Positions 2,892-63,900 of a stretch of 64,000 nucleotides of DNA are shown here, piece after piece; within the stretch, counting starts at the first letter, position 1, and each line of letters begins with the position of its first letter. Both the position numbers and the translations under genes were made by a program. The notes beneath the pieces are model-generated. The model saw only the letters and a list, made by a program, of their open reading frames with translations. It ran no database searches and was not told where the DNA came from. The DNA comes from Cetorhinus maximus (taxonomy: Eukaryota), in contig NC_135901.1 in assembly GCF_964194155.1 (NCBI RefSeq), positions 22,940,001-23,004,000 of the forward strand, written 5' to 3'.

Positions 2892-4206
2892 GATATTAGA
2901 AGCAGAGGAATTGCAGTCAGGAAATTTAAATCAAACACCACATTAGGATCTGACAGAGTCTCTCGATTCATCAGAACCTGAATATCATCAGCCTTTGAAC
3001 ATGGAAGTAAAAAGCACCATTCACACTGAGGAGAAACCAGGGAAATGTGGGGACTATGGGAAGGGACTCAATTACCCGTCTGAGCTAGAAATTTATCAGT
3101 GCTGTCACACTGGGGAGAGGACATTTCCCCACTTTGACTGTGGGAAAGAATTAATTGATTCAACCAACCTGCTGACACACCAGTGAGTTCACACTGAGGA
3201 GAGGCCATTCACCTGCTCCGAGTGTGGGAAGGGATTCACAAAGTCAAACCACCTGCTGAAACATCAGCGAGTTCTCACTGGGGAGAGACCGTTCACCTGC
3301 TCCAAGTGTGGGAAGGGATTCATTCGTTCATCCAACCTGCTGACACACCGAAGAGTTCATACTGGGGAGAGGCCGTTCGTCTGCACCAAGTGTGGGAAAG
3401 GATTCGCTCAGTCGTCCACCCTGCTGATACACCAGCGTGGTCACAGTGGGGAGAGACTGTTCACCTGCTTCGAGTGTGGGAAGGGATTTACTTGTTCATC
3501 CAACTTGATGAGACACCAGCGAGTTCACACTGACAAGAGACCTTTTAAATGCTTGGACTGTGAGAAGTGCTATAAAACCTCAGGTCAACTTATGTCCCAG
3601 CAACATATTCACACTGACGAGAGACCGTTCAGGTGCTCTCACTGCGGGAGTAGGTTCAGGCGATCATCTGAACTCACTGTACACCAACGAATTCACACTG
3701 GGGAGAAACCATTCCTCTGCTCCGAGTGTGGGATGGGATTCACTCAGTCAGCCAATCTGCTGTCACACCAGCGAGTTCACACTGACGAGAGACCTTTTAA
3801 ATGCAAAAACTGCAGGAAATGCTTTAAAAGTTCTGGTGAACTGATGCGCCATCAACGAGTCCACACTGATGAGAGACCTTTTAAATGCCCAGACTGTGGG
3901 AAGTGCTATAAAAGGTCTGGGGATCTGATGTCCCATCAACGTATTCGCACTGACGAGAGACCATTCAGATGCTCGCACTGTGAGATTGGGTTCAGGCAAT
4001 TGTCTCAGCTCACTGAACACCAGCGAATTCACACTGGAGAGAGGCCGTTCACAAGCTCCGAGTATGGGAAGGGATTTACTCAGTCAGCCCATCTGCAGAC
4101 ACACCAACGGGTTCACAGTGTGGAGAGACCAGTCACCTGTTTCATGTGTGGGAAGAGATTCACTCGGTCATCCACACTTATGAGTCACCAGCGAGTTCAC
4201 AAATAA
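2892..4206 (+). pseudogene. C2H2 ZF unit 1 (MEVK-type start); in-frame stop and several degenerate fingers
   Basis: ORFs 2995-3186 and 3505-4206 are in one frame; TGA at 3184 in HQ*VH; 12 repeats follow, about 4 lacking a Cys/His; acceptor ttcatag at 2885-2891. Confidence 0.8.
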
Positions 4207-4989
4207 TTACAGTGATTGGATTTTGCTGTTAATCATGCCTAGGACTGAACCATGTTCATTGGGGTCTGTTTCTGCTGATGTTAATAAACTCCAGCCCAGT
4301 TATAATGGTTAATATTTTGGATAAAAGTCAAATAAATCAACTTTGTTCTAAACTCACAGTGTGGTGAAACTTCTAATATCTCTAACAGAAGTTAGTTCCT
4401 TTTGAAGTGCTCTCCCTTTCCCCGTATCCTCCTCCTCACCTCAAACAACAAGTGTGAGGAGCTCATGGAACTTCTTTGTCACTAAGATTGAGACAATCTG
4501 ATCAGCTGCCTCTGCTGCTTCCCTCCCTTCCACTAACCTACCTGGAAAAGTTGTATCTGAAGCGCCTTCTTGTCCAAGCTCTGCACTTGCATCTTTCTCC
4601 AGTTTCTCTCCTATCTTCTATCTCCCTCAGCTCATTTTGTCTCTGAGACCTGCCTTCCGCTTCTTTGACACTATTCTCACTAAACTGCTGACCATCCAAC
4701 TTCCACATTTTAGACAATATCCTTAACAGTTGGTTCTCTTTTCATACTGTCCCTCTCACCTTTAAATCCACTGTTATCTCTCATCATAAGAAAATCCTTT
4801 GACCCCACCATCCTCCCCCACTCTCTTTTCTCTGACTTTTTACTTGCTGGTAAACTGTTCGATCTCTAATTTTTTTTTCAGTTTGGATCAAAGGTTCCTG
4901 ACCTGAAGCATTCACTCTGTTTCCCTCTCTATAGATGCTCTTTAACCTGCTCAGAGTTTCCAATATTTTCTGTTTTGAGGTCAAACAAA

Positions 4990-5255
4990 TATACGAATTA
5001 GGAGGAGGAATAGGCCACTCGGCCCCTTGAGCCTAATCTAATTGAGCTGATCTAATTGCAAGCTTAACTCCACATTCCTGCCCACCCCGATAACTTTTCA
5101 CCTCCTTGCTTATCAAGAATCTATCGAGCTCTGCCTTTAAAATATTCAAAGACTCTGTTTCCACCGCCTTTTGAGGAAGACAATTCCAAGGACTCATGAC
5201 CCTCTGAGATAAAAAACTTCTCTTCATCTCTGTCTTAAATGGGCCACCCCTTATT
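4990..5255 (-). mobile_element. CR1 3' end fragment
   Basis: FLSQRVMSPWNCLPQKAVE...LKAELDRFL. Confidence 0.8.
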
Positions 5256-5429
5256 CCGCCCCCCCCCCCCCCCAGTTCTAGGTCGGATTTCCACCTAGAG
5301 TATTACAGTATTTTGTTTTTGGGTCAGAGAGGATCAGTTTTCTCTGGAATGAGACATCAGTAACTATCACCCTGTTCGACATGAAACTAAACTCACTGTT
5401 AATTCCTCATCAGTAACAATTTTAAACAC

Positions 5430-5501
5430 AGTTTCCAGCCGGGATTGAACCGGGGGCTTTCCCATGTAAAGTAAACGTGATAATCACTGCACTGGGGAAA
5501 T
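5430..5501 (-). pseudogene. tRNA-Val(TAC)-like pseudogene
   Basis: Minus strand TTTCCCCAGTGCAGTGATTATCACGTTTACTTTACATGGGAAAGCCCCCGGTTCAATCCCGGCTGGAAAC is colinear with vertebrate tRNA-Val; mismatched stems. Confidence 0.7.
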
Positions 5502-5599
5502 GAATGTGAATCCCCCCCCCGGGACAGAGGGGAACTGACCATCCATCTCTAGCTCTAATTCCCAAACAGAAAATGCTGCCAAGAATCAGCAAGTCAGGC

Positions 5600-5980
5600 T
5601 GAGTCTGTGGCCGCTCTCGGCGTTTGAAACCGTCACAATGCCCAGGTGATTGACGGCAGCTCCAGACCAATAGGAAGAGGGTGCGCGGCTGGAGGTCCCA
5701 GCAGCTGGATCTGGTCCTCCAACCAATCGGAGTGAACGAGGAGGCGGGGCCAGGCTGTGACTGAAGCATGCGCAGCGCGGGTAATGACGATGGAGAGACG
5801 GGTCCACAATGGGTAAAGGGGGGAGAGGACGGGGCGGAGGAAGCGATGGATCCGGCGGGTGGACGGAGAGGCTCCGGAAACATGTTGTGTAAACCGCAAA
5901 CCCCGGAAATAAACTGACCGGTTCCCCCTCCCCCGTTTACACCGAGCGGGGCGGCAGCTCCCAGATCAATGAAGAGCCGG
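5600..5980. promoter_or_regulatory. CpG-rich promoter upstream of ZF unit 2
   Basis: Two CCAAT, GC box aggcggggc, gcatgcgc; homologous to 62410-62600. Confidence 0.7.
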
Positions 5981-6571
5981 TTTGTATCAGTTTGGACATT
6001 GGTTTCAGAGGCTGGTCCCTGGTCTCCAGCGTCGGTTCTTCATCATTGAATCATTGAATGGTTACAATACAGACGGAGGCCATTCAGCCTGTCCTGGCTC
6101 TCTGCAAGAGCAAATCAGCTAGTCCCACTCCCCTGCCCTTCACTAACAAGACCAGCAGCAGATATTTCCCATCCCCAGTTACCTGTGGAGAAGATGATGT
6201 TTGACCTTCTTGAACCACTGCAGTCCATGTGGTGAAGATGCTCCCACAACGATGGACAATACAGACTGGGTGGCAGATTCCCTTCCCAAAAGGACATTAG
6301 TGAACCAGTTGGGTTTTTACAAAAAATGCAGCAGCTTTAATGGTCACTTCTTCCTAGTGCCAACCGTAAAAATTACCAGGTTCATTCGGCTTAGTTTCAC
6401 AACCTGCCTTTGTGTTTTTGTGGGTTCTCTTTCACTCATTTATTTTCTGTTTTAAATTAATTTCACAGGGTATTAGAAGGGCAGGATTTGCAGTCGTGAA
6501 ATTCAAACCAAACATCACATCGGGACCTGACAAGAGTTGCCAATTTACCATAACCTGAATATCATCACATT

Positions 6572-7015
6572 TTGAACATGGAAGGAAAAAACACCATTCA
6601 GATGGGGGAGAAACCGTGGAAATGTGGAGACTGTGAGGAAGGATTCAGATCCCCATGTAAACTGGAAGCTCATCGGCGCAGTCACACTGGGGAGAGGCAA
6701 TTCACCTGCCCTGAGTGTGGGAAGGGATTCAGTCGGTCATCCAAGCTGCTGCAACACCAGAGAGCTCACAATGGGGAAAGGCCATTCACCTGCTCCCAGT
6801 GTGAGAAGGGATTCGCTCAGTCATCCCATTTAGTGAGACACCAGCGAGTTCATAGTGGGGAGAGGCTGTTTACCTGTTCCGAGTGTGGGAAGGGATTCAC
6901 TCGATCATCAGGGCTGCTGACGCACCAGCGAGTTCACACTGGGGAGAGGCCGTTCATCTGCTCCCAGTGTGGAAAGGGATTTGCTCAGTCATCCAACTTG
7001 CTGAAACACCAGTGA
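6572..7015 (+). CDS. C2H2 ZF unit 2 (MEGK-type), 4 complete fingers; 5th cut by a stop
   Basis: TGERPF linkers; ends HQ*VHR; acceptor tttcacag at 6461-6468; AATAAA-like 3' UTR shared with unit 1. Confidence 0.7.
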   Translation: MNMEGKNTIQMGEKPWKCGDCEEGFRSPCKLEAHRRSHTGERQFTCPECGKGFSRSSKLLQHQRAHNGERPFTCSQCEKGFAQSSHLVRHQRVHSGERLFTCSECGKGFTRSSGLLTHQRVHTGERPFICSQCGKGFAQSSNLLKHQ

Positions 7016-7659
7016 GTTCACAGGTAACTATGGTGATGGATTTTGCTGTTAATCACATCCAGGACTGAACCATGTTCATTGGCGTCTGTCGCTGCTGATG
7101 TTCATAAACTCCAGTCATATGGATTAATAGTCTGGATAAAAGTCAAGTAAATCAGCTTTGTGTTAAACATAGCGTGTTGAATCTTTTTAATATCTCTAAC
7201 ATAAGTTAGTTCCTTTTGAAGGGCTCTCCCTCTCCCCTGTCTCCTCCATCCTCACCTCCAACAACAAGTGTGATGGAGCATCTTTGTCCCTAAGATTGAG
7301 ACAATCTGATCAGCTGCCTCTGCTGCTTCCCTCCCTTCCACTAGCGCACTGGGAAAAACTGTCTCTGAAGTCCCCCCTTGTCCGAGCCCTGATCTCACAT
7401 CTTTCTCCAGTTTCGCCCCTATCTTCTGTTTCCCTCAGAGCTCACCTTATCCATGAGACCTGCCTTCTGCTCCCTTAATCCTATTCTCACTAAACTGCTG
7501 ACCATCCAGCTTCCATATTTTAGCTAACCTTGTTGGCAGTTCTCTGTCTCTTCTGGTTCTGTCCCTCACCTTTAAATCCACCGTCCTCACCCATCATTAC
7601 AAAAACAACCTTTGAACTCACCAGCTTTGCAAACTAACGTCCCATCTCCAATTCTCCTT

Positions 7660-9366: not shown

Positions 9367-9369
9367 CAT

Positions 9370-9760: not shown

Positions 9761-10394
9761 GATAGAAAGGTAGGTAGGAGAGTAAGCTGTGAAGAGGACA
9801 TAAGGAGGCTACAAAGGGACACGGATAGGTTAAGTGAACGGGCAAAAATCTGGCAAATGGGGTGTAATGTGGGCAGATGTGGCATTGCCCATTTTGGCAG
9901 AAAGAATAAAAAAGAAGCATATTGTCTAAATGGTGAGAGATTGCAGAGCTCTGAGATTTTATTTATTCATTCACAGGATGTGAGCTTTGCTGCCTGGGCC
10001 AGCATTTACTGCCTATCCCTAGTTGCCCTTGAGAAGGTGGTGGTGAGCTGCCTTCTTGAACCGCTGCCAGTGGAGAGTTTTCCCCTTGATTCCCATTGAC
10101 TTCAGTTCAACTACAGTTCTGCTTTTGCAGACCATTTCAGTGGAAATTTGCACTCTTAAACTCAAAGAGCATCAGCCCACTGAAAGCAAAGTCAGTCCAG
10201 CAGAGCATGAGCCCACTGGAAGAAAAATCAGTCTAGCAAAAAGAAACCCTTCGACCCTCCCACTTCAGCAAGTGTCAAAATGAACATGGCTCAGTTCGGA
10301 TGAGATTAACAGCAGCAATAATAGCAGAATCCAACCCCTACAATCAACCATGAACTTGCTGGTGTGTCTGCAAGTTTGATAACTGAGTGAATCC

Positions 10395-10850
10395 CTACCC
10401 ACACTCAGAGCAGGTGAATGGCCTCTCCCCAATGTGAACTCGCTGGTGATGCTGCAGATTGGAAGACAGACTGAATCCCTTCCCACATTCAGAGCAGGTG
10501 AACGGCCTCTCCTCAGTGTGAATTCGTTGGTGATTCCACAGGTCGGATGACTGGAGAAAACACTTCCCACACTCAGAGCAGGTGAATGGCCTCTCCCCGG
10601 TGTGACCACATTGATGAATCTTCAGTGCAGACGGGGTACAGAATCCTTTCCCACACTCAGAGCAGGCGAATGGCCTCTCCCCGGTGTGACCACGTTGATG
10701 AATCTTCAGTGCAGACAGGGTACAAAATCCTTTTCCACACACAGAGCATGTGAATGGCCTCTCCCCAGTGTGAACACATCGATGGGTTTCCAGTGCAGAC
10801 GGGATCCGGAATCCCTTTCCACAATCCCCACATTTCCACGGTTTCTCCAT
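10395..10850 (-). CDS. C2H2 ZF unit 3 (MEKPWKC start), 5 fingers; 6th broken by TAG
   Basis: ORF 10395-10850; remnant GFTQLSNLQTHQQVH after the stop; acceptor near 11166. Confidence 0.7.
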
Positions 10851-11377
10851 GGTGGGGGTTTCCTTCTTTCTTTCCAGGTTTGACGGTCAGTTGAAGCCTC
10901 ATCCACACACACAACACGTGTACCGTCTCTCCCTGTTATGAATGGTATGATGCACTGGAATACACTCACTCAGGTCTCTCTGTCTCGGTGATTTTCCAGT
11001 CACACTGATGTTTTAAATCTTTTGGAGCAGACAAAACAGACAAACATTTCTTCTTCTAGATTCAAAGGCCGATAATATTCAGGTCCCAATGAATCAGGTG
11101 ACTGTTAGATTCTTACATGACGTTTGGTTTGATAATCTGTCTGCAAATCCGCCCATTCCAATATCCTGAAAAGGAGTTTACAAAGGTCACCATTGTCAGT
11201 ACAGGATAGAAATTTGGACCAGGCAATTCTAGTTCCGATGGATGATTCTTTCCTCTCTTGTTCCTCAAAAGCTGTAAATCTTCATCCCACATACTTTCCC
11301 TCCATTCTCACTCTACTATACCTAATATGCACCCTTCCGATTCTCCTGAAGGTACAAAACATGCTGATCTACTGATC

Positions 11378-11607
11378 AAAAACAGAATTACCTGGAAAAA
11401 CTCAGCAAGTCTGGCAGCATCGGCGGAGAAGAAATCAGTTAACGTTTCGAGCCTTCATGGCCCTTCGGTTCTGCCGAAGGGCCATGAAGGCTCGAAACGT
11501 TAACTGATTTCTTCTCCGCCGATGCTGCCAGACTTGCTGAGCTTTTCCAGGTAATTCTGTTTTTGTTTTGGATTTCCAGCATCCGCAGTAGCTTTTAGCT
11601 TTTTGTT
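11378..11607. mobile_element. Palindromic Penelope-end mini element with 14-bp TSD
   Basis: About 92-bp inverted arms 11377-11468 and 11474-11565; TSD ctgatctactgatc at 11364-11377 and 11608-11621. Confidence 0.85.
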
Positions 11608-12354
11608 CTGATCTACTGATCTATGCTTACCAGTTCAAAATATCTATTGGACAAAAATTCATGTAACATCGAGTACTGTATTACATGATACATGGGGGAT
11701 GTAAGGAAGTACTTTATTTGGGAAGTGAGTGGTCATGACATGGAACTCTCCACTTAAGAGGGTAGTGGAAGCAGAGACGATCAATGTTTTTAAAATGAAA
11801 TGGGATGGCACTTGAAGGAAATAAATTTGCAGGGGAATGGGGATATAGAGGGGGAATGAGACTGACTGACTGAATTGCTTGACAGAGAGTCAGCATTGAC
11901 TCATGTTGCCAAATGGATTTCTTCTGTGCTGTAATGACTATGACTGGAAATATACTAAGTAGCTACAGTACTATATTGCAAGACTAGAAATAATGATAAA
12001 TGTACTTTATTACAGAAACATTAAAAATGTATCAAATATACAGCATATGACAACACAACATACTTTGTCCCATATTAATTTACTGTCCCCTTAAATGCCA
12101 GCCATCTCCTGGGGAAACCGCCTCTTTAATTAGAAACATTAGGAACGAGGCCATCCTTTTCACCAGACAAATAAATATGTCGAGCTGAGGGAGCAAAGGA
12201 TACCAATGTCTTTAAGAGTGAGAGAGACCTGGGCCAACTTTTCCAGAGTCTGCACCCTCCCTGGATTCACTTCCTTTCCCTTCAGTTCCAGCAAGTCAAC
12301 AATTTAAACCATAATTAGAAAAGAAATGGAAAGGAGGAGAAAAGAAAGTGTTTT

Positions 12355-13003
12355 ACTCACAGAAGTAGGACAGAGGAAGAAGTTTTGTTGCGTGTGAAGC
12401 TGAATCTTCATTCAGAGCTTGTTAATCTGCTCATTACAGCTTTGCTGGGCAGTAATGAACATGTTCACAAGCTCATTGTCCAACACCCGCATTCAGACAA
12501 TGGGGGAAGCTCCGTGCAGCCATTGGCACAAAGCCCAATTCAGGTCCACCAGCTCTTCGCATTGGTCAACCCCGGATCGACCACAATGAGGGAGCGTGAC
12601 CCCTGCCCACGTGGGGGCGGGAGAGACTTTGACCTCTAGACGCACTGAGCTATTGTCCAATCCGCAATATTTTGCTTCTGTAACCAGTGCTATCGCTCCC
12701 AATGGGACACTGTACTGGGGACGAACCTCTGAGTCAGTGTGACGTCTACAATAGAACACTGCCTGAATCAGCCAGCAGGAATCACTCTGCTCTGCGGTGA
12801 CGTCCTCTGGTTCCAGTCTGCAGGCCGCGCGGACACGGAAGCCCCACGCCAATACTTCCTCGAGACAAGGTCTCCAGGCAACCCGACTGACGGCTCCGGC
12901 CAATAGCGAGCGCTGGAGGACCGGAAGGACTTTGGTCCTCCAGTCAATCAGAGGAAGGGTTCACACAGACCAAAACTTCCTCCTGTGTCCAGGATCTGTG
13001 AGT
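12355..13003. promoter_or_regulatory. Bidirectional CpG promoter with divergent first exons (units 3 and 4)
   Basis: Homologous exon ends with GTGAGT on minus (12355-12360) and plus (12998-13003); gtgacgtc twice; CCAAT. Confidence 0.7.
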
Positions 13004-13079
13004 TTGTTTGCGTTGAAAAGAAAGAGAAGAGGTACAGGCGGGGTTGAGAGGTTGAGGTTTTCAGGAGAAAAGGGAATAA

Positions 13080-13606
13080 TTCAGTAACAGAGTAGTGAAG
13101 CTGTGAGTTGGAGAAGGAGATGGAGAGGGAGGAAGTCTGAGCAGCTGGGAAAAGAAGAGCAAAAAGGTTGATTGGGGGAATCCAACAATGAGAGATCCAG
13201 AGGCTGAGACCCTTGGGGCTGCCTGTGGAAATGGGCTGTGGGAAGACAGCCCTCTGAACAGACTTCAGTCCAACCTCCTGGAGGAGGAAAGGAACTGAAT
13301 GTATACCTTGGAAATACAGAGAGTTGTGGGACTCTGTAACTGGAATTAGTGTCAAATATGCTGAGGGGGGAATTGCTTGTGATTTTGTGGAAGATGCTTT
13401 TATTGTACGAGCTATTTAAAGTGAAATTTAGCTCTTATTAAAAAAAAGTTTTTCTTTTTTAATGCATGCTTCATTTATGTTGATTTTAGTTTGACTGTTA
13501 CAGTAAAAGTTAAAAGTGAAACCTTGCCCTTCGGTTTATTCCGTTGGGGTTGTCTGGAAATTTGTTTCTTTATTTTAAGGTTACCGTTCTTCATGGGGAT
13601 TGTAAC
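13080..13606 (+). mobile_element. LTR-like fragment in intron
   Basis: Ends ggggattgtaaca; inverted paralog at about 26638-26925 with the same junction. Confidence 0.5.
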
Positions 13607-14196
13607 AACAGAGATGTGTCTAGTGTTGTTATATGTTACATATTAGATATGTCATTTATGGTTCTGTAGTAAAGTTCATTGATTATTATTTCTAGTCTTG
13701 TAATATAGTACTGTAGGTATGTTATATATTTCCAGTCATAGAGTCATTTCAGCACGGACAAAGACAATTCGGTTACTCAAGTCCATGCCAACTCCCTATA
13801 GAGAAATCCAGTCAGTCCCATTCCCCCTCTATATCCTGGTAACACTGCAAGTTTATTTCTTTCAAGTGTCCATCCAATTTAATTTTTAAACCATTGATTA
13901 TCTCCGCTTCCACCACCCTTGTATGGAGTGAGTTCCAGTTCATTTTCAGGGCCCTGTGTCCTGGACAGGAAGCAGTGAGCATGTATCTGTCAATCAGCAT
14001 GAACTGGCACCTTCAGGAGAACTTGGAGAGTGTATATGAGGGACAGCAGAGTGAGATTAGTGGGAAAGTGTGTGTGGTGGAGGTTTACACCTTTTCAGGA
14101 ATGAAAGAAGAAAAAGTGTTCATGTAAACTAGAATTGTCTGTCCTCAGCTTCTATCCTGTAATGACAGTGTTGAATTGTGTAAACTCCTTTTACAG

Positions 14197-15058
14197 GATA
14201 TTGGAAGGAGAGGATCTGAAGTCAGGAATCTCAAAACAAACATCACATTAAGATCTGACAGTCACTCAATTAATCACAATGTGAATATCATTGGCCTTTG
14301 AATTTAGACAGAAATGTTTGTCTGTTCTGTCTCTTCAAAAGGTGTAAACATCAGTGTGACTGGAAAAGCACTGAGACACACACACCCGTGCGAGTGTGTT
14401 CATGTTACGCAGCCTGAAAAAACATCACACCATTCATGGTGAGAAGAGACTGGACACGTATTCTGTGCGAGGACGAGGCTTCAACTGATCATCAAAACTG
14501 GAAGGACAAAAGGCACCAGGGAGAAACCGTGGAAGTGTGGGGACTGTGGGAAGGGATTCAAAGGCCCATCTGAGCTGGAGATTCGTCGACGCAGTCACAC
14601 TGGGGAGAGGCCGTTCACCTACTCCGTGTGTGGGAAGGGATTCATTAAGTTATTCAACCTGCTGATACACCAGAGAGTTCACACTGGGGAGAGCCCATTC
14701 ATCTGCTCCATGTATGGGAAGGGATTTGCGGAGTCATCCAGCTTCCGGAGACACCAACGAGCTCACACTGGGGAGAGGCTGTTCACCTGCTCTGTGTGTG
14801 GGAAGGGATTCAGTGAATCATCCACCCTGCAGAGGCACCAGGCGGTTCACACTGGGGAGAGGTCATTTACCTGCTCTCTGTGTGGGGGAAGGGATTCACT
14901 CAGTCAACCAGTCTGCGGACAGACCGACGTGCTCACACTGGGGAGAGGCCTTTCACCTGCTCCGTGTGTGTGGGAAAGGATTCACTGAGTCATCCAACCT
15001 GCTGAGTTAGCATGGCAGTCACACCAATTAGAGACTTTTTAAATACTCTGACTGTGGG
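14197..15058 (+). pseudogene. C2H2 ZF unit 4; frameshifted, 3' end cut by an LTR element
   Basis: Degenerate fingers, frameshifts near 14885 and 14965, TAG near 15008. Confidence 0.85.
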
Positions 15059-17720
15059 TGTTCATTATATCATTTGGGCTTCAGTATATACAGGTGGTAG
15101 GCATTGATTGGTTGGTTACATGAGCGCATATGAAGAGGCACTTACTGACACAGAGTGGAGTTAGGAGGTATATACCAATAATGTTTCACTCTGTGAATAA
15201 ATCTATACCGATAAGATTGGCTCCAGTTTCTTCCTTCACCATAAGACTGTCAGGACTGAATGACCGGGGAACAATTAACAGGTGTTTCAGGTCTAACTCA
15301 CAATATCATTGTGTGGTGAACTGCCCAAAGCAGAAAATCAGGGTCTTCAGAGTGACACATGACATTGAGAATTCTGAGGCTGAAGATGATAATGATCACT
15401 CTGAATAAACTGTACCAATTAGAAGGAGCTTTGACTAAGTTATGAGTGTGTCCTATTGTAAACCTTCCCTTGGCAGGTGACTCCATAACAAGGTAGATGC
15501 CATGGATCGAAAGGAATGGGACAAAGACAAATATTTTCATTCTACACTTTATAGGCATGGTAACCGATTTAGTCTTTCTCCAATAAGACATCCCAAGGAC
15601 AAAAGGGTGATTATCGACCAAGTCATTGGAGAAATAGATAGGGAGGGTTTAAACTAGATTGGCAGGAGGATGGGAACCTGAGGGGAAATTCAGAGAGGAG
15701 AGGAGAAAAACTGGCAGTGGGAAGTAGAGAAGTATTAGCTGATAAGGAGGATATAACAGAGAGTAGCATCAAGGTAAGTAGAATACTCGGAGAGTCTGAT
15801 AGAACTAGAGTAGGCTATCGTAAGTCATTAAATGGAGTCAGAGCAAGGGGGAAAATTTAAAAAGCCTAAGTCAGTATTAATGTGCATATATGTGAATGCA
15901 CGGAGTGTGATTAATAAGATTGGTGAACTAAAGGCATGGGCTGACAAATGAAACTATGATATTGTTGCTATAACTGAGACCTGGCTCAAAGAAGGACAGG
16001 ACTGGGCATTAAATGTTCCTGGGTATAAGGTATTTAGTAGGGACAGAAAAGGAAGAAAGTTGGGGAGGGCGTGGAGTGGCTGTATTAATTAAAGATGGTA
16101 TTACAGTACTGGAGAGAGAGGATGTTCCAGAGGGGTCAAGTATGGAATTGTCCTGGCTAGAGGTTGATAAGGGCAATTTTGTTGATGTTGTGTACATGGA
16201 TTTGCAAAAGGCATTTGATACAGTGCCACAGAACAGACTTGTGAGCAAAATTCTAGCTCATAGAATAAAAGAGAAAGTAGGAACTTGGATAAGAAATTGG
16301 CGGAGTAACAGGAAACAGAGTAGTGATAAATGGTTGTTTTTCAGATTGGAGGAAGATCTGTAGTGGAGTTTCCCAGGGTTCAGTGTTGGGACCCTTGCTC
16401 TTGATATATATTAATGACCTAGACTGTGGTGTGCAGGGCATGATTTCAAAATTTGCAGATGATACGAAGATTGGAAGCATTGTCGACTGTGACGAGGATA
16501 GTCTTGAACTTTAAAAGGACAGACACATTGGTGGACTGAGCAAATAGCAGATGAAGTTCAATGCAGAGAAATGGGAGGTGATTCATTTTGGCAGGAAGAA
16601 TGTGGAGAGACAGTATGAAATAAAGGTAGAAACTCTTAAGGAAATGCAGGAACATAAGGACATCAGTGTATATGTATATAACTCATTCAAGGTGGCAATG
16701 CATTTTGAGAGCAGTTAATAAAGCATATGGTATCCTAGGCATTATTAATAGGGGCATTGAGTACAAGAGTAAGGAGGTCATTTTAAACTTGTGTAAGACA
16801 CTAGTTAGGCCTTATCTGGAGTACTGCATCCAGTTCTGGGCGCCATACTTGAGGAAGAGTGTGAAGGCATTGGAGAGAGTACAGAGGAAATTCACAAGAA
16901 TGATTCCAGGGATAAATAACTGTAGCTATGAGGTAAGATTGGAGAGGCTGGGACTGTTTTCCTTGGAGAAAAGAAGGCTGACAGGAGACTTGATAATCAA
17001 GATCCTGAGGAGTATGGACAGGGTAATTAGTGAGAAACTGCTCCGACTCAAGAGAACATCAAGAACTAGAGGGCACGGATTCAAATTAATGGGCAAAAGG
17101 AGAAGTGATGTGAGGAAAACATATTCACCCAGAGGGTGATTGGAGCCTGGAACGAACTTCCTGAGAGGGTGGCTGAGGCAGGTTCGATCGAGGTATTCAA
17201 AAGGGAATTGGATTGCTACCTGAAAAGAGAGAATGTGCAAGGTTACGGGGATAAGGCAGTGGAGTGGGATTAGGTAGAATGCTTTTTCAGCGAGCCAGTG
17301 CAGACTCAATGGGCCGAACGGCCTTCTTCTGCATTGTGAAGATTCTGTGACTAGACCTAGGGCACCAGCTAAATTTCTGACTGATAATTGAGGGGAATTT
17401 GCGAATGATGAGTTTAGAGACATATGTGAAAACATGAATATTATGGTCATGAACACCGCAGCTGAAAGTCCTTTCAGCAATGGACTCTGTGAAAGGAATC
17501 ACTCAGTGATCCATGAAATGTTGCATAAAGTTTTAGCTGATCAGCCAAACTGCAAGTTGATAACTGCACTGGCATGGACAATTCATGTAAAGAATTCACT
17601 TCAGATGGTTGGAGGTATAGTCCCTATCAATTGGTCTGTGGGAGAAATCCCAATTCACCCTCTGTGCTGGACAACAGCCCTCCTGCTTTAGAAGGGGTGA
17701 TCATTGGTCATCAATAATCA
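15059..17720 (+). mobile_element. Deleted Copia (GalEa-like) LTR element: 5' LTR 15059-15252, gag and integrase fragments, split by CR1
   Basis: TG...CA LTR of about 194 bp; GTINRCFRSNSQYH knuckle; TAAESPFSNGLCERNH integrase; inverted paralog at 58349-60383. Confidence 0.75.
15640..17350 (+). mobile_element. CR1 LINE (endonuclease fragment, RT, 3' end)
   Basis: GRGVAVLIK, VYMDLQKAFDTVP, SGVSQGSVLGP, SKFADDTK. Confidence 0.9.
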
Positions 17721-40731: not shown

Positions 40732-40786
40732 AATTTAAACCTAGAATTAGAAAAGTAATGGAAAGGGGGAGAAATGAAAGTGTTTT

Positions 40787-43149: not shown

Positions 43150-43589
<440 letters not shown>

Positions 43590-49289: not shown

Positions 49290-50324
49290 CACTTGTGAAC
49301 TCGTTGGTGTCTCGGTAGGTGTGGTGAATGAGTGAATCCCTTCCCACACATGGAGCAAGTGAATGACCTTTCCCCGGTGTGAATTCGCGGTGTGCCCGCA
49401 GGTTGGAAGATTGAATAAATTCCTTCCCACACTCAGAGCAGGCAAATGGTTTCTCCCTGGTGTGAACTCGCTGGTGTGCCCGCAGGTTGGAAGACTGAGT
49501 GAATCCCTTCCCACACTCAGAGCAGGTGAACGGCCTCTCCCCGGTGTGAACGCATTGGTGTGTCCAAAGGTTGGATGACGTTGTAAACCTCTATGCACAG
49601 TGAGAACAGCTGAACGGTCTCTCCTCAGTGTGAATACGTTGGTGGACCCTCAGATCTGCCGCACTTTTGAAGCTACTCAAACAGTCAGAGCATTTAAAGG
49701 GTCTCTCATTGGTGTGAGTGATATGGTGTGCCAGCAGGCTGGATGACTGAGTGAATCCCTTCCCACACTCACAGCAGGTGAACGGCCTCTCCCCAGTGTG
49801 AACTCGCTGGTGCTTCTGCAGGGTGGTGACTTAGTGAATCCCTTCCCACATTCAGAGCAGGTGAATGGCCTCTCCCCAGTGTGACTGCGTAGATGAATCT
49901 CCAGCTCTGATGGAGCTTTGCATCCCTTCCCACAGTCTCCACATTTCCATGGTTTCTCCATAGTGCGGGTTGCCTTGTGTCTCTCCAAATTCAACGATGA
50001 GTTGAAGTCTCGTCCCCACACAGATAATGTGACAGACAACAGTCTCTCACTGCTGTGAATGGTGCCATGTTTGTTCAGATTGTATAACTGGTTAAGTCTC
50101 TTTCCACAGTCAGTACACTGGAACACATTCAGTCAGGTGTGTGTGTCTCGGTGCTTTTCCAGTCACACTGATGTTTAAAACCTTTTGAAGCAGACAGAAC
50201 AGACAAACATTTCTCCTTCCAGATTCAAAGGCCAGTGTTTTGCACGTCCCAATTAATCAAGTGACTTTGTGAGGTTACGATGTGATGTTTTGGGATTTCT
50301 GTCTGCAAATCCTCTCCTAAAATA
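49290..50324 (-). pseudogene. C2H2 ZF unit 9; frameshifts and stop
   Basis: MEKPWKC present; frameshift near 49830 and near 49390; TAG near 49592. Confidence 0.85.
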
Positions 50325-50624
50325 CTGTAAAAAGAATTTACAAAAGTCATCATTGTCAGTATAGGACAAAAATTCATAACAGCCAATTCTAGTTGCTTTG
50401 GCTTATTCTTTCTTCTCTTGATATACAGGTGGAATGGGGCTCTACAGAGAGTCAGCATGGACTCAAGTTGCTGAATGGACAACTTCTGTGCCTTAATGAC
50501 TGGAAATATATACAGTACTATATAGGAAAACTAGAAATAATAATAAATGTACTTTATTAAAGAACCATAAAAATCTAGCATTTACTGTATTAACACTAGA
50601 CATACACAATCTATATTCAAAAAT

Positions 50625-51950
50625 AGAATCATAGAGTTTTATAGCATGGAAAGAGGCCCTTCAGCCCATCATGTCTGCGCCAGTCATCAAGCCTCTATCT
50701 ACTCTAATCCTGTTTTCCAGCACTTGGCCCATAGCCTTGTGTGCTATGGCATTTTAAGCGTTCATCTAAATACTTCTTACATGTTGTGATGGTTCCTGCC
50801 TCTACCACCCTTTCAGGCAGTGAGTTCCAAAAACCCCCCACCCTCTGGGTGAAAAAAATCTTTCCTCAAATCCCTTCCAAACCTCCTGCTCCTTACCTTA
50901 AATCTATGCCCCCTTGTTACTGACCCCTCCACTAAGGGGAAAGGTTTCTTCCTATCTACACTATCTGTGCCCCTCATAATCTTGTACACCTCAATCAGGT
51001 CCCCCCTCAGCCTTCTCTGCTCTAAGGAAAACAACCCCAGCATATCTACCCTTTTTTGATCCTTTTTTTTAACTATCATTTTTATTTCGTAATTTTTATT
51101 TGTTTATTTATATATCTTTTCCCCACTTATTTTCATTATTATTATTTTTTAAATTTATTTCAATTTTTATTCATTGTTTTGTCCCCAGCTTTTAGCCTTT
51201 TCGATCTTTTTTCCCACCACTGTCCCCTCCCCCCACCCCACCCCACTCCACCCCACCCCCACTAGGGTCATCTGTCACTTTCAAGAGTGCTTACCCTGGT
51301 CCTGCCATTATCATATTCTGCTTTCCACTCTTCATATCTCCATTAGCACCTCCTTTAGCGAGTACCATCGCTATTAACAGCCCTTTGAGCTTTTGTTTAT
51401 GACATCTTTCGCAATCTCTCCTTTGCCTCCACCTGTTACACCTCCTTTAAACAGTATATATTTCACCACATTTCTACTTCCCTTTAGCTCTGAAGGAGAG
51501 TCATACGGACTCAAAACGTTAACTCTGTCTTTTTTCTCCACAGATGCTGTCACACCTGCTGAGTTTTTCCAGCATTCTTTGTTTTTGTTCCAGCCTATCT
51601 AGTCTCTCTTCATAGCTGAAATGATCCAGCCCAGGCAACACCCTGGCAAATTTCCTCTGCACCCTCTCCAGTGCAATCACAAGCTTCCTACAGTGTGGTG
51701 ACCAGAACTGCACACAGTACTCCAGATGTGGCCTAACACTTTATACAACTCCATCATAACCTCCCTGCTCTTGTATTCAGTGCCTTGTCGAATCAAGGCA
51801 AGTATCCCATATGCCTTCTTAACCACCATATTTACCTGTCCTCCTCTCATCTAGAATTGATGGACATGCACACCAAGGTCCCTTTGTACTTCCAAGGGTC
51901 CTACCACTCTCGTGTTGGCTTGTTAGTCCTCCCAAAATGTAACACCTCAC
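50625..51950 (-). mobile_element. CR1 3' region interrupted by a Penelope remnant (51049-51589, +)
   Basis: LGLFSLEQRRLRGDLIEVYKIM; TSD-like ccagc(a/c)tatcta at 51037-51048 and 51590-51601. Confidence 0.8.
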
Positions 51951-52231
51951 GCTTTAATGTCCTAGCTTGTCATCTTAAATGTCAGCTAACTCCTGGGGAA
52001 ATCATCCCTTTAATTGTGAACATTAGGAAAGAGACCAACCTTTCAACCAGACAAATTAATGTGTCAAGTTGAGGGAACAAAGAATGGCAATGATTTTAAG
52101 AGAAAGAGACGTGAGCCAACCTTTCCAGAGTCTGCACCCTCCCTGGATTCACTTCCTCTCCCTTCAGTTCCCGCAAGTCCATAATTTAACCCCAGAATTA
52201 AAAAAACAAATAGAAGTAAAAACACTGATTT

Positions 52232-52700
52232 CCTCACAGATGTTGCCCAGAGGAGGAAGTTTTGGTTTGAAGCTGATTGTCCACCTTTCGCATTGTGACG
52301 TCCACAATGGAACGTTGGCCGAATCAGCCAATAGGAATCACACTGTTCCGCGGTGACGTCCTCGGGTTCCAGTCTACAGGCCAAGCGCGCGGACACTGGA
52401 GCACCGCCCCCACCCGATATTCCCCCTCCTCCTGCACCTCCTCGAGACAAGGTTTCCAGCTAACCGGCTGACGGCTCCGGCCAGAGGGAGAAGTCGCTCG
52501 GCGAACTCACCCCTCCCCCCACTGTCTACGGCGGTTGGCTGGTTCAAAAAGAGATCGAGCGCCTGCTCCGGACAGCAGCGCTTTCTGCGCCTGCGCTGCC
52601 AGCTGAGGGAATGGGGGAGGGGAGTTTACAATATGTCTTCCCCTCATTTTCTTCCAAGTCCTGTAGTTTGATTTTAAACAGCACAACATTTGTTTTAGCT
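52232..52700. promoter_or_regulatory. CpG promoter between divergent units 9 and 10 (inverted paralog of 27000-27500)
   Basis: gtgacgtc twice, ccaat, tgcgcctgcgc; donor on minus at 52232-52237. Confidence 0.7.
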
Positions 52701-53351
52701 TCGCACACTCTAGAGGCTGAGTTTCCTCAATTTCTCCTCATAGGAAAATCCCACCCTGCAGGCATTAGTCTGGTGAACCTTTGCTAAACTCTCCCTTGTG
52801 ACAAGTATATTCTTCCTTAGGTAAGGAGACCAAAACTGTATTAAACACTCCAGCTAATGGAGGGAGTGTGTGTGGGGGCAGCTACTTACAGCGCTTGGGG
52901 AGTAAGAAAGGAAATAATGTTCCAGAGAAATTAAGAACAGGCAATTCCAGTTTCTATCCTGGACTGAGGGTGCTGACTTTTATAAAGTCCTTTGAGAGGC
53001 TATTTGAAGAGGAGGATTTACAGAGACGGAAATCGAACCAAACATCAAGTGAAGAATTGGCAGTCACTCAATTATTGCGCGACCTGAACATCATCGGCCT
53101 TTGAATCTTGAAGGAGAAAACTTTGTTTGTTCTGTGTGCTTCAGAAGATTTTAAAATCAGTGTGACTGAGAAACGACACAGACACACACCCGAGTGAGAG
53201 TGTTCCAGTGCACTGACTGTGGCAAGAGCTTTAACCAGTTAAACAGCCTGTAAGAACATCACTATTTACAGCTGGGAGAGACCGTACATGTGCTGTATGC
53301 GGACGCCTCAGCTGATCAACGAACCAGAAGAGAGACTAGGAGGCCCACACC

Positions 53352-54110
53352 ATGGAAAAACCATGGAAGTGTGGGGACTGTGGGAATGGATTCAGATCCC
53401 CATCTCAGCTGGAACTTCATCAACGCAGTCACACTGGAGAGAGACCATTCACCTGCTGTGAGTGTGGGAAGGGGTTCACTCATTCATCCCACCTGCTCAG
53501 ACACCAGCGAATTCACACCAGGGAGAGGCCGTTCACCTGCTCTGAGTGTGGAAAGGCATTCACTACTTCATCCGACCTGCTGACGCACCAGCGAATTCAT
53601 ACCGGGGAGAGGCCATTCACCTGTTCTGATTGTGGGAAGGGATTTAGTCGGTTATCTCACTTACAGGCACACCAGCGCGTTCACACTGGGGAGAAGCCGT
53701 TCACCTGCTCTGATTGTGGAAAGGGATTCTCTCACTCCTCCAACCTGCGGATACACCAGCGAGTTCACACTGGGGAGAGGCCATTCACCTGCTCCGAGTG
53801 TGGTAAGGCATTCATTGATTCGTCAAGCCTGCGGATACACCTACGAGTTCACACCAGGGAGAGACCATTCACCTGCTCTGAGTGTGGGAAGGGATTCAGT
53901 CGATCATCGTTCCTGAAGGCACACCAGCGGATTCACACCGGGGAGTGGCCACCCACCTGCTCTGAGTGTGGGAAAGCATTCATTGATTCATCCAGCCTGC
54001 TGAGACACCAGCATCTTCACACTGGGGAGAGACCGTTCACCTGCTCTGAGTGTGGGAAGAAATTCAGTCAATCAACCTACCTTCGGAAGCACCAGCGAGT
54101 TCACAAGTGA
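53352..54110 (+). CDS. C2H2 ZF unit 10, 9 intact fingers
   Basis: accATGG MEKPWKC; intact ORF; aataaa near 54379. Confidence 0.85.
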
Positions 54111-54423
54111 TAACAGGGGTTGGATTCTGCTGTTATTGCTGCCGTCAATCACATCCCAGAGAGAACCATGTTCATTCTGATGATTGATGAAGTGGGAGGG
54201 CCGGAGGGTTTCTTTCTGCTGGACTGGCCGGTCTCATGACTTTGCTTCCAGTGGGCTGATGCTCTTTTAGCCTGGGTGTGCATGTTTCCACTGAAGTGAC
54301 CCACAAAAGCTGATGTAGAACGTCTATTTTATCCTGTATAGTAAATAGTGTTTTTTCTACCACTACAGATAGGTCTCAAATAAATACATTTGTCTCTGTT
54401 CCATTGGGTCTACAGCACAGGGA

Positions 54424-60383: not shown

Positions 60384-60466
60384 CCTAGAGTCAGAGTGTC
60401 GAAAGGGTCTGTAATCAGTGTGACTGCAATGGTGTCTCAGCAGGTTGGATGACTCTGTGAATCCTT

Positions 60467-61294
60467 TCACACACTCAGAGCAGGTGAACGGTCTCTCTCC
60501 TCTGTGTGAAGTCGGCGGTGCTTCCGCAGGCTGGATGTATCAGCAAATTCCTTCTCACACTCAGAACAGGTGAAAGGCCTCTCCCCAGTGTGAACTCGCT
60601 GGTGTCTCAGCAGGTTGGATGATTCAGTGAATCCTTTCCCACACAGAGAGCAAGAGAACGGCCTCTCCCCGGTGTGAACTCGCCGGTGCTTCCATAGGCT
60701 GGATGAATTTGGGAATCCCTTCCCACACTCAGAGCAGGAGAATGGCCTCTCTCCAGTATGAACACGTCGGTGTGCCTGTAGGCTGGTTGACCGAGTGAAT
60801 CCCTTCCCACACACGGAGCAAGTGAATGGTCTCTCTCCGGTGTGCGCTATCTGGTGCCGCAGAAGGTTGGTTAACCGAGTGAATCCCTTCTCACACACGG
60901 GGCAAGTGAATGGCCTCTCCCCAGTGTGAACAACACTGTGGTTCTGCAGGGTGGATGACTCACTGAATCCCTTCCCACAGACAGAGCAGATGAACGGCCT
61001 CTCCCCAGTGTGAACGCGCTGGTGCAACCGCAGGTGTGATGACTGAGTGAATCCCTTGCCACAAACGGAGCAGGTGAACGGCCTCTCCCCGGTGTGAACT
61101 CGCTTGTGTGTAACCAGATGCGATGAGTGATTGAATCCCTTGCCACACTGAGAGCAGGTAAATGGCCTCTCCCCCGTGTGAATGCGTCGATGAATTTCAA
61201 GTGCAGATGGGGAACGGAATCCCTTCCCACAGTCCCCACATTTCCACGGTTTCTCTATAGTGCAGGTGCCCTTGTGTCTCTGCATGTTCACCAA
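60467..61294 (-). CDS. C2H2 ZF unit 11, 9 intact fingers then frameshift; usual ATG is ATA
   Basis: TIEKPWKC; upstream in-frame ATG (MQRH); LTR insertion at 60383; duplicated fossil leader 61300-61800; acceptor near 61890. Confidence 0.6.
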
Positions 61295-62399
61295 TCAGCT
61301 GAAGCCTCATCTGTACACAAAATACGTGAACGGCCTCTCTCCGCTGTGAATGGTGCAATGTTTTTTCAGGCTGTGTAACTGGTTAGAGCTCTCTCCACAG
61401 TCAGTCCACTGAAACACTCGCACTCAGGGGTGCGTGTCTCTGTGCTTTTCCATTTACATTGATGTTTAAAAATGCCAGAAAGAGACAGAGCGTCGATGAG
61501 TTTCTAGCTTTGATGGGGAAATCAATCCCTTCCCACAGTCCCCACATATCCAAGGTTTCTCAGAGGACCTGATGTGTTTGTGTCTCTCCAGGCTGGACAA
61601 TCATTTGAAGCCTTGTTTATAAGCAGAACACATGAACGATTTTTCCCTGCTGTGAATGGTGTGATTTTTATTCAGTCTGTGTAACTGATTAAAACTCTTT
61701 CCACAGTCAGTGCACTGGAACACTCTCATTCGGGTGTGTGAATGTCTTGGTGCTTTATCAGTCACACTGATGTTTGAAATCTTTTTCCACAGACAGAATA
61801 GACAAACGTTTACCCTTCCTCATTCAAAGGCCAGTGATATTCAGGTTCTGCTGAATCAAGTAACAGTGAGATCCTCCCCTTCTAACCTCCTGTAAAATGA
61901 GTTTACAGAAGTTATCACTGTAAATACGGGATATTTTCTTTTATTCATTCATGGGGTGTGGGCTTCGCTGGCTGGGCCAGCATTTATTGCCCATCCCTAG
62001 TTGCTCTTGAGAAGGTGGTGGTGAGCTGCCTTCTTCAACCGCTGCAGTCCATGTAGTATTAAATATATAAATTCACAACAGAGAATTCTAGTTTCTATGG
62101 AACATTTTTTCCTCTCATTTCCCCAAATCTATAAATCTCTGACCCACACACTCCTTTCCCTCTCTGCTCATTGTCCCAGATTCAGTGTCCAGTCTCCTAC
62201 TTATTCTTTTCTCCTCTCCAGATTCTCTCTCCTCCTGTCCTTAAACTGATGACTCAGGCTGTGGATCAATTTCACTCCTTCACTCTAATTCTACCAAATA
62301 CTTTGCCTCAAAACAACAAATTACCTTTATTGACTTTATCAGTGTTGTTAAATGAACGGAAATAACCACCTTTTCCCAATTGGGCCTCTGGTTCAGTTT

Positions 62400-62825
62400 G
62401 GTGCCTCAGAGAAGCCGGAAGCGGCGGATGGTGATTCCGGACCAATAGGAAGAGAGGGGGAGAGGCTGGAGGACCGAGTTGGAGCTGCTGGTCCTCCAAC
62501 CAATCGGAGTGAACGAGGGGCGGGGCCCTGACCGCACCACAGGCGGCTCCGCGCAGGCGTGTTCTGGGGCAGAGATTGGAGCATGCGCAGTGCGGAAGAT
62601 GTGTTGAATCGGTAGGGGAGGCATGACTCGAGGCAGGAGAGGAATAGAGGCGGCGGGTGGACTTGGAGGCTTGAGAAACACCTCATGTAGGCTCCCATAT
62701 TCTGCATTTTCACCAAGCGGAGCAGCAGTTGAGGGGTTTCTGATGACAGGCCCGAGGGTAACGGCCGCACTGCCATCTTGAGAAGGGAGGGTGTGCAGCG
62801 GGGCGCATGCGCGGCGACAGGGATG
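62400..62825. promoter_or_regulatory. CpG promoter (paralog of 5640-5780)
   Basis: ccggaag, two CCAAT, ggggcggggc, gcgcatgcgc at 62803-62812, gccatcttg (YY1-like) at 62772-62780. Confidence 0.7.
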
Positions 62826-62959
62826 ATGGGATTTGGAACAAGGAAACTCAAATCAAGGATCCCATCAGGATCTGAGCAAGTCCCTCAATTCACCAGGACC
62901 TGGGTATCAACTGCATCTGATTGTGGAAGGACAAACAGGGCTGCCTGCTCTGTTTGTGG

Positions 62960-63270
62960 TAAGTGTGACCCCGGTGTGACTGCACCGATGAGTTTCCAGC
63001 TCTGATGGGTAACTGAAAACCTTTCCACAGTCCCCACATTTCCAGCTTCTCTCCAGTGTGACTGCGCTGGTTTTGTGTACGGGCAGAAGAGCTGAAGCCA
63101 CGTCCACACACACACAAAACATGTATACGGTTTATCCAGGCTGGGAACGGGTACCTTTGCTTCCATGTTCAAAGGCCGATGATATTCAGGTCCTCATGAC
63201 TCTGTCAGATCTTGATTTAATGTTCGGTTTGTGTTTCCCATCTGTAAATCCACCTCTTCCAACACGTTGA
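62960..63270 (-). pseudogene. ZF unit 12 fragment (MEAK-type leader, about 2 broken fingers)
   Basis: MNMEAK...[25 protein letters not shown] across frameshifts. Confidence 0.75.
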
Positions 63271-63684
63271 TAAATGAATTTAAAACAAGACAAGGGAGTG
63301 TGAGGGAATCACAAAAACAAAAAGGCAGGTTGTGATACTGAGCTGAATGAATCTGGTAATTTGGGGGCTAGAACAAAGTGGGCAGAGCTTCAGGGTCCCA
63401 GTGACCAGGAGAGAAAATCATTGATTCGTTGATTTTATTCTAACTCTCCACACAGGCACCAGAGAACTGAACCTAGCCAGAGTAGAGGGAGGGAGGGAGA
63501 TAACTGGGAAATGGCAGAGATGGTGAGATGGTTTTGGATTTCAGCCCAGGGAGGAGGGAGAGTGTGTAGAATGGGGATTTACAGCTTTGGGGGAACAAGA
63601 GATGTTGTTTGATAGTGACTTGAATTGTCTGTTCTGAATTTTCACCCTGGGCTTATTGTTGACTTTGCTAAATTCCTTTTAAAG

Positions 63685-63900
63685 GGCATTAGAAGGGGAG
63701 AATGGAAAATTCAAACCAAACATCATATCAGGATCTGACATAGTCACTGGATTCATCAGGACCTGAATATCATTGGCCATTGCATATGGAAAGGAAAATG
63801 TTTGTCCGTTCTGTCTGAGGGAAAAAATTTCAAGCATCAATTTGATTGGAAAAGCACCGAGACACAGATACCTGAGTGGGAGTGTTGCAGTGAACTAACT
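63685..63900 (+). pseudogene. ZF unit 13 leader fragment, cut by a SINE head (63900-63950, -)
   Basis: gcattagaaggggag...atgtttgtc...ggaaaagcaccgagacac matches the shared leader. Confidence 0.65.

What the first reader, a model, noticed from the sequence alone, without database searches (positions are those of the whole stretch)
2892..63900. Birth-and-death cluster of ZF genes with no visible effector domain, built from one repeated cassette
Seen: about 13 paralogous units share promoter, first exon, acceptor, leader, 3' UTR and flanking CR1. Intact ORFs are pure C2H2 arrays of 9-12 fingers with variable helix residues; most units are decayed. Established: tetrapod KRAB-ZNF and cyprinid FiNZ-ZNF clusters evolve this way and repress transposons through an N-terminal domain. 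Inference: this may be a lineage-specific analogue that works without a fused repressor domain, for example by steric blocking or a partner protein.
Basis: partly seen in the sequence, partly recalled or inferred. Interest (0 to 1): 0.75.

Follow-up and report, generated by a model that had tools for sequence, protein, structure and literature searches.

The report
Shark fingers-only zinc-finger gene chromosome
This shark-like DNA holds about 14 duplicated zinc-finger genes, most of them broken; the intact ones encode finger arrays with no recognisable silencing domain and all start with the same unusual first finger, and they likely bind DNA, but their targets and any role against transposons are untested.

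Summary
Observation largely confirmed. The window holds 14 paralogous C2H2 units (3 intact: 12, 10 and 9 fingers; one near-intact), mostly alternating in strand as head-to-head pairs around short CpG-rich regions. It is a slice of a 65-Mb chromosome with 80 fingers per 200 kb sampled, against 2 elsewhere. Named homologs are from sharks. The cassette is modular, not uniform: two types, several promoters, flanking CR1 in only 5 units. No effector was found: the leader is a dead relic (0 of 43 open in frame, dN/dS about 1, 42 of 46 indels shift frame), and the genome's best KRAB hits are PRDM9-like exons on another contig. Intact recent copies are under purifying selection (dN/dS 0.23-0.25), base-contacting residues included, so recent arms-race selection is not seen; change comes by finger gain, loss and older divergence. 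An acidic first finger (W, P, S, L, E invariant in 19 of 19) is a candidate partner-binding module. Splicing, expression and transposon binding are untested. The scan reported this family before on other windows of this genome. New variant of a known kind.

The parts
2892..4294 (+). U1, short-leader type, broken (stops and frameshift before an 8-finger open stretch)
5690..7120 (+). U2, short-leader type: CpG promoter-like region 5690-5790, acceptor 6469, ATG 6578, stop in finger 5
10133..12399 (-). U3, long-leader type, stop in finger 6; first-exon motif 12356-12385; head-to-head with U4
12960..15060 (+). U4, decayed, start codon changed, 3' end lost
18935..26995 (-). U5, decayed; Penelope-like insertion in its intron; CR1 insertion between its 3' end and the shared flanking CR1 fragment; head-to-head with U6
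26944..27491 (.). Predicted bidirectional CpG promoter of U5/U6: two first-exon donor motifs facing outward about 540 bp apart, with GCGCATGCGC and CCAAT motifs (factor names NRF1/NF-Y recalled)
27440..28945 (+). U6 predicted non-coding 5' exons: exon 1 ending 27486, conserved mini-exon candidates 27555-27603 and 28885-28945 (splicing untested)
29114..29452 (+). U6 leader: relic acidic stretch plus three dead fingers, in-frame stop 12 codons before the ATG
29453..30463 (+). U6 intact ORF, 336 aa, 12 C2H2 fingers; fixed first finger at 29453-29533
30464..31043 (+). U6 conserved 3' tail, AATAAA-bearing segment 30690-30760 and flanking CR1 3' fragment 30853-31043
37279..40831 (-). U7: first-exon motif 40788-40817, acceptor 38968, intact ORF 38711-37815 (298 aa, 10 fingers, reads on 19 residues into the tail), tail, flanking CR1
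43156..44184 (+). U8, 5' end replaced by retroelement sequence, internal stop; tail and flanking CR1 kept
48695..52629 (-). U9, decayed (frameshifts, stops) but with promoter, first exon, leader fingers, tail and flanking CR1; head-to-head with U10
52700..54413 (+). U10: antisense CR1 fragment about 52706-52860 in place of the normal first-exon donor, acceptor 52999, intact ORF 53352-54110 (252 aa, 9 fingers), tail
60420..61915 (-). U11/U12: acceptor 61889, duplicated leader and first finger, 275-codon open frame with 9 fingers, frameshift at finger 10, tail lost
62970..63287 (-). U13, short-leader fragment with one finger
63553..63904 (+). U14, acceptor 63685 and truncated leader

Best explanation
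The window is a slice of a shark chromosome filled with duplicated C2H2 genes whose intact members encode finger arrays with no recognisable effector domain and likely act as sequence-specific DNA-binding proteins, predicted to be transcribed in head-to-head pairs through non-coding 5' exons. Shown: tandem and segmental duplication, frequent death, a non-coding leader, purifying selection on intact recent copies including base-contacting residues, and change in finger number between close paralogs. Inferred: new specificities arise by finger-block gain or loss and by episodic change of contact residues, are then held by selection, and the proteins act on repeats or promoters through a partner bound in trans, with the invariant acidic first finger the most likely docking site, rather than through a fused repressor domain.
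For: Scale: 36 arrays in 264 kb around the window; 80 fingers in 200 kb sampled evenly along the 65-Mb contig vs 2 in 200 kb elsewhere; 416 exact matches to a 32-nt start-of-gene pattern, 0 for the reversed control, 96 of the first 100 listed on this contig. Birth and death: U6, U7, U10 each have 15-17 copies at 86-97% identity, of which 13 of 15, 5 of 17 and 11 of 15 keep a full-length ORF. No effector: leader open in the array frame in 0 of 43 genes, dN/dS 1.05-1.06 over its first two blocks, 4 of 46 indels multiples of 3; no KRAB/SCAN/BTB hit in 124 upstream frames; genome-wide KRAB hits 4, none on this contig, the 3 best being PRDM9-like exons (PRDM9 likeness recalled); 13 longer shark homologs list no KRAB, SCAN or BTB. 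Selection: U10 12 intact copies dN/dS 0.23 (p 2.7e-8), contact residues 0.22; U7 6 intact copies 0.25 (p 5.9e-7), contact residues 0.09. Finger shuffling: U6 relatives have 12, 13 and 14-15 fingers, U7 relatives 10 or 11. First finger: W, P+1, S+2, L+4, E+5 invariant in 19 of 19, helix charge -1.4 vs +0.3 inside arrays; P+1 with E+5 in 3 of 1012 other fingers; same finger heads arrays in other sharks.
Against: No binding, target or partner data. No usable transcript evidence, so exon joins and bidirectional transcription are predictions. The acceptor-strength test did not exclude a cryptic acceptor near the ATG (pyrimidine share 0.61 vs 0.69). The leaders carry 1-8 upstream ATGs, which could limit translation. 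dN/dS came from variant counting without a tree, fixed kappa 4, and some copies on unplaced contigs may be alleles; CpG-rich synonymous sites inflate dS (against the leader rate the ratios would be about 0.43 and 0.24). U10 reference plus broken copies also gave 0.30, so the intact/broken contrast is clear only for U7 (0.65). Pfam holds no FiNZ model that I tested; a novel domain would be missed by Pfam, although the closed leader blocks its fusion through the known acceptor. First-finger invariance may be structural (an N-terminal cap).
Confidence: 0.55

Rival explanations
1. One reading: a shark analogue of KRAB-/FiNZ-ZNFs in an active arms race, silencing young transposons by steric blocking or a partner.
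For: Chromosome-scale cluster, high turnover and retroelement-rich setting; ZNF copy number tracks retroelements across animals independent of accessory domains (PMC10547256, Discussion read); contact residues among 19 older paralogs change at dN/dS 1.3-1.5 while C/H do not change.
Against: Contact residues are conserved among recent duplicates (0.09-0.22), unlike recent mammalian poly-ZF expansions (PMC2604467 passages). The 1.3-1.5 values rest on non-independent counts and were not shown to exceed 1. The human fingers-only LINE-1 binder ZNF146 showed no L1 de-repression on disruption (PMC8896011 passages).
Confidence: 0.25
2. Mostly a by-product: a repeat-rich chromosome amplifies blocks by segmental duplication, gene conversion keeps copies alike, and few copies matter; apparent constraint reflects a few functional parents and recent copying.
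For: 11 of 14 units in the window are not fully intact; whole multi-gene blocks are copied more than ten times including dead genes; non-coding leader and tail are as alike as, or more alike than, synonymous sites.
Against: Amino-acid change is depleted among the copies themselves, and the family architecture is kept in other shark lineages.
Confidence: 0.12
3. A hidden effector exists: a novel N-terminal exon far upstream spliced to a cryptic acceptor next to the start codon, or a C-terminal peptide made by reading through the stop.
For: The leader looks like former coding sequence; a 17-codon open stretch after the stop is the most conserved non-coding part (0.063 vs 0.084 leader, non-CpG), is translated in U7 after loss of the stop and ends several annotated shark proteins.
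Against: Post-stop dN/dS 0.68, p 0.25; U6 has a 5-nt deletion there and U10 a second stop; short-leader genes carry a second in-frame stop; no conserved upstream coding exon seen.
Confidence: 0.08

Closest known systems
Cyprinid FiNZ-ZNF family on zebrafish Chr 4q (Wells et al. 2023, PMC10547256; abstract, introduction, passages and Discussion read)
   Same: Lineage-specific tandem C2H2 family of hundreds of genes concentrated on one repeat-rich chromosome region, array in one exon, rapid turnover.
   Different: FiNZ is an acidic domain in an upstream coding exon; here the 5' part is non-coding. Four of seven young FZNF clades showed positive selection; the two young clades tested here show purifying selection. 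The paper's main text has no mention of sharks or cartilaginous fish; its supplements were not read and may list shark ZNF counts.
Tetrapod KRAB-ZNF clusters (PF01352)
   Same: Clustered birth-and-death, [10 protein letters not shown] linkers, finger gain and loss between paralogs.
   Different: No KRAB on this contig; the genome's best KRAB hits are PRDM9-like. KRAB families are reported lost or absent in cartilaginous fishes (PMC8455134, PMC11603059 passages).
ZNF146/OZF and the 'ZNF-only' class (PMC8896011, PMC3971581, PMC2604467; passages read)
   Same: Proteins of C2H2 fingers alone; OZF has 10 fingers, no KRAB, and binds LINE-1.
   Different: Human ZNF-only genes are mostly old and conserved single genes, not a chromosome-scale expanding family with one cassette; the fixed acidic first finger did not appear in the passages read.
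Zinc-finger clusters noted on catshark chromosomes 13 and 17 (PMC11979771, passage read)
   Same: Probably the same family: clusters of many recent zinc-finger duplicates in a shark.
   Different: One sentence in passing; no gene structure, domain content or selection described in the passages found.

Membership tests
Tandem C2H2 (poly-ZF) genes | Array of PF00096 fingers with conserved linkers | tested here: met
   12, 10 and 9 PF00096 stretches in U6, U7, U10
Birth-and-death poly-ZF cluster | Recent duplicates, intact and dead copies side by side, finger-number change | tested here: met
KRAB-ZNF | KRAB exon upstream, in frame with the array | tested here: not met
   No PF01352 hit on this contig at E<=1 among 150 of 152 candidates scored; none in 124 upstream frames; leader closed in 43 of 43
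SCAN-ZNF / BTB-ZNF | SCAN or BTB domain N-terminal to the array | tested here: not met
   None in 124 of 198 upstream frames scanned; none of the 150 scored SCAN hits (of 4987 candidates) lies on this contig
FiNZ-ZNF | FiNZ domain in an upstream coding exon | tested here: inconclusive
   No FiNZ profile was available to scan; indirectly unlikely, since no upstream exon can join in frame through the known acceptor
FiNZ-ZNF / KRAB-ZNF (function) | Positive selection at base-contacting residues among recent paralogs | tested here: not met
   dN/dS 0.22 and 0.09 in the U10 and U7 clades; 1.3-1.5 among older paralogs, not shown to exceed 1
FiNZ-ZNF / KRAB-ZNF (function) | Binds and represses transposons | not testable with these tools
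   Needs ChIP/DAP-seq and knockdown
ZNF-only genes (OZF-like architecture) | Protein made of fingers alone from start to stop | tested here: met
   Six residues before the first cysteine, one after the last histidine in U6 and U10; 19-residue tail in U7. Met at DNA level; transcripts untested
Bidirectional head-to-head gene pairs | Divergent transcription from one short CpG-rich promoter | tested here: inconclusive
   Outward-facing first-exon motifs 540-640 bp apart in U3/U4 and U5/U6; transcription not observed

The most novel reading that the evidence does not exclude
Sharks built a chromosome of thousands of repeat-targeting zinc-finger genes that discarded their N-terminal extension and turned the first finger itself into the effector: the invariant acidic W-x-C...PSxLE finger docks a corepressor while the remaining fingers read DNA, a third solution beside KRAB and FiNZ.
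Probability: 0.2. Interest if true: 0.8.

Novelty: new variant of a known kind. Interest (0 to 1): 0.45.

Why it matters
How vertebrates without KRAB-ZNFs use large zinc-finger families is open. A shark family of probably a few thousand fingers-only genes with one fixed, odd first finger makes the question directly testable: swap or mutate that finger and look for partners, and map where the arrays bind. If the family merely binds without silencing, it would weaken the idea that every large ZNF expansion is a transposon repressor.

Tried and rejected
RNA evidence: no RNA holder listed; runs guessed to be RNA hold at most 0.22 of the words and appear to be relatives. Laying four of them on 26400-41300 gave short, paralog-mixed contigs; no exon 1-to-leader joint among the 15 of 275 joints shown, which says nothing either way. 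Splicing of U7 stayed untested. Stop-codon readthrough peptide: not supported. Conserved RNA structure in the 3' tail: 1 of 37 predicted pairs has a two-sided change, covariation term -0.6; no Rfam hit in the window. Selenocysteine-type recoding of the shared leader TGA codons: rejected, since the leader also has TAA stops and frameshifts. Cryptic-acceptor test by pyrimidine share: inconclusive. First-finger profile search of 1.84 billion proteins was swamped by long finger arrays; 10 of 192 proteins held carried the motif. PDB search gave only generic fingers. Leader-peptide search gave 1 hit, a shark gene model with no effector family. One motif scan timed out and was redone with BLAST. No structure or complex job was run; no motif prediction against transposons was attempted. 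No tree-based codon model was fitted.
Full report
Observation. A six-frame scan finds 83 canonical C2H2 fingers in the window. Self-alignment and motif scans resolve 14 unit remnants, 13 if U11 and U12 are one gene with a duplicated leader. Three ORFs are intact: U6 (12 fingers), U7 (10, plus a 19-residue tail) and U10 (9); U11 keeps 9 fingers in frame but is damaged at both ends. Pfam sees only zinc-finger families in them. The cassette is modular: acceptor and leader in 12 of 14 units, first-exon motif in 6, 3' tail in 9, flanking CR1 fragment in 5. Two leader types and at least three promoter types occur. From U2 to U11 the strand alternates at every step, and U3/U4 and U5/U6 carry outward-facing copies of one first-exon motif 540-640 bp apart in CpG-rich DNA, which predicts shared bidirectional promoters.

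Setting. The window lies at 22.94 Mb of a 65-Mb contig in a 4.0-Gb genome. The surrounding 264 kb hold 36 arrays. Twenty evenly spaced 10-kb samples of the contig gave 80 fingers; twenty from other chromosomes gave 2. A 32-nt pattern for the gene start has 416 exact matches, control 0, and 96 of the first 100 listed are on this contig; 4 of the 36 local arrays match it exactly. Both figures extrapolate roughly to about 3,000 arrays, live and dead (inference). The closest named proteins are from Heterodontus, Pristiophorus and Heptranchias and share the start, leader relic and tail, so the family is shark-wide or nearly so.

Is there an effector? From 124 ORFs with 5 or more fingers in all fetched DNA (113 distinct), 43 passed the filters for intact long-leader genes and 19 were non-redundant; the loci were chosen by likeness to U6, U7 and U10, so the set leans to that type. 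The leader reads as a former coding stretch (acidic start, then three dead fingers with shared stops), but it is open in the array frame in 0 of 43 genes, its first two blocks have dN/dS 1.06 and 1.05 (the last two 0.65 and 0.75), only 4 of 46 indels are multiples of 3, and an in-frame stop usually sits 12 codons before a strong-context ATG. Short-leader genes mostly have a stop just before their ATG; two open exceptions in the flank are damaged genes. No KRAB, SCAN or BTB appears in 124 of 198 upstream frames scanned. Genome-wide, KRAB gives 4 hits, none on this contig; the 3 best are PRDM9-like exons (likeness recalled). SCAN hits are dispersed, none of 150 scored on this contig. Thirteen longer shark gene models list no KRAB, SCAN or BTB. 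Remaining gap: a cryptic acceptor beside the ATG was not excluded and no transcript shows the joins.

Birth, death, selection. U6, U7 and U10 have 15, 17 and 15 close copies at 86-97% identity across the contig and on unplaced pieces; 13, 5 and 11 keep full-length ORFs. Counting distinct variants per column among existing sequences: U10, 12 intact copies, 37 synonymous on 215 sites, 21 non-synonymous on 541, ratio 0.23, p 2.7e-8, contact residues (-1, 2, 3, 6) 0.22; U7, 6 intact copies, 0.25, p 5.9e-7, contact residues 0.09; U7 reference plus broken copies 0.65 (p 0.2); U10 reference plus broken copies 0.30. Caveats: no tree, kappa fixed at 4, possible alleles among unplaced copies, CpG inflation of dS. 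U6 relatives are not collinear: 12, 13 and 14-15 fingers, with a block repeated. Among the 19 older paralogs, contact residues of the first and last fingers give 1.28 and 1.46 while C and H do not change (star-shaped counting, not independent). So intact genes are constrained, recent copies keep their predicted specificity, and diversity comes from finger shuffling and older change. This rejects 'neutral' and does not show a current arms race.

First finger. In 19 of 19 genes it has W before the first cysteine pair and P+1, S+2, L+4, E+5; helix charge is -1.4 against +0.3 for internal fingers. Of 91 W-type fingers 87 are first and 4 second; P+1 with E+5 occurs in 3 of 1012 other fingers. Its invariant residues are mostly not the base-contacting ones, which fits a protein-binding or capping role (inference). 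PDB offers no specific match.

3' tail. The 66 nt after the stop are the most conserved non-coding stretch (non-CpG difference 0.063, leader 0.084, synonymous 0.105-0.143; nominal p 0.03) and are open for 17 codons, which U7 translates. A coding signal is not significant (0.68, p 0.25), U6 and U10 break the frame, and no covarying structure is seen. A 3' UTR element or copying between genes is more likely than readthrough.

Mechanism. Shown: architecture, duplication, decay, constraint. Inferred: transcription from shared promoters, non-coding 5' exons, translation from the MEKPW start, DNA binding, action through a partner in trans. Untested: targets, silencing.

Literature. Wells et al. (PMC10547256; abstract, introduction, passages, Discussion) describe the FiNZ family and a domain-independent link between ZNF and retroelement numbers; no shark mention in the main text; supplements not read. 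PMC8455134 and PMC11603059 (passages) report KRAB families missing in cartilaginous fishes apart from PRDM9. PMC11979771 (passage) notes clusters of recent zinc-finger duplicates on two catshark chromosomes. PMC8896011 (passages): fingers-only ZNF146 binds LINE-1 with no de-repression on disruption. PMC2604467 and PMC3971581 (passages) treat ZNF-only models as common and warn of missed exons. PMC10208646 (passages) added nothing. Five searches found no paper describing this family's structure; the library lacks most subscription journals. The scan's earlier notes on other windows of this genome reach the same reading; they are not independent support.

Verdict. Real, a new variant of the known lineage-specific poly-ZF cluster: works like a KRAB/FiNZ cluster in turnover, is not a member of either on the tests run. 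Interest 0.45.

Noticed in passing
window 52706-52860: An antisense CR1 fragment replaces the normal first-exon donor of U10 and offers a consensus-like donor at 52820/52821, kept in all 15 close paralogs (14 with the same 12 letters); possible transposon-derived splice site.
   Followed up: partly
window 24486-26179 and 55570-57433: Penelope-like retroelement copies (GIY-YIG, weak Pfam hits), 78% alike; one sits in the U5 intron.
   Followed up: partly
window 15267-18491 and 57466-59740: Two 80-90% alike pieces of an integrase-bearing retroelement (rve hit at 58352-59116), both broken.
   Followed up: partly
L021-L023 (G000:C34, 9.1-9.4 Mb): Three near-identical PRDM9-like KRAB exons within 280 kb: possible PRDM9 duplication.
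   Followed up: no
G000 genome-wide: Thousands of SCAN-like candidates dispersed over chromosomes, probably retroelement capsids (recalled); none of the 150 scored lies on the zinc-finger contig.
   Followed up: no
window 8-153, 1094-1181, 9369-9757; 39245-39563: A 23-bp minisatellite in three places and a 27-bp one in the U7 intron.
   Followed up: no
window 11377-11565: A 189-bp inverted repeat (96%) formed by two facing SINE-like copies in the U3 intron.
   Followed up: no
window 30464-30530 and paralogs: Conserved 66-nt stretch after the stop codon, open for 17 codons, translated where the stop is lost (U7 clade and others).
   Followed up: yes
window 3500-4130: Short-leader genes carry a repeated internal block of distinct fingers (336-bp period in U1), not seen in long-leader genes.
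   Followed up: no
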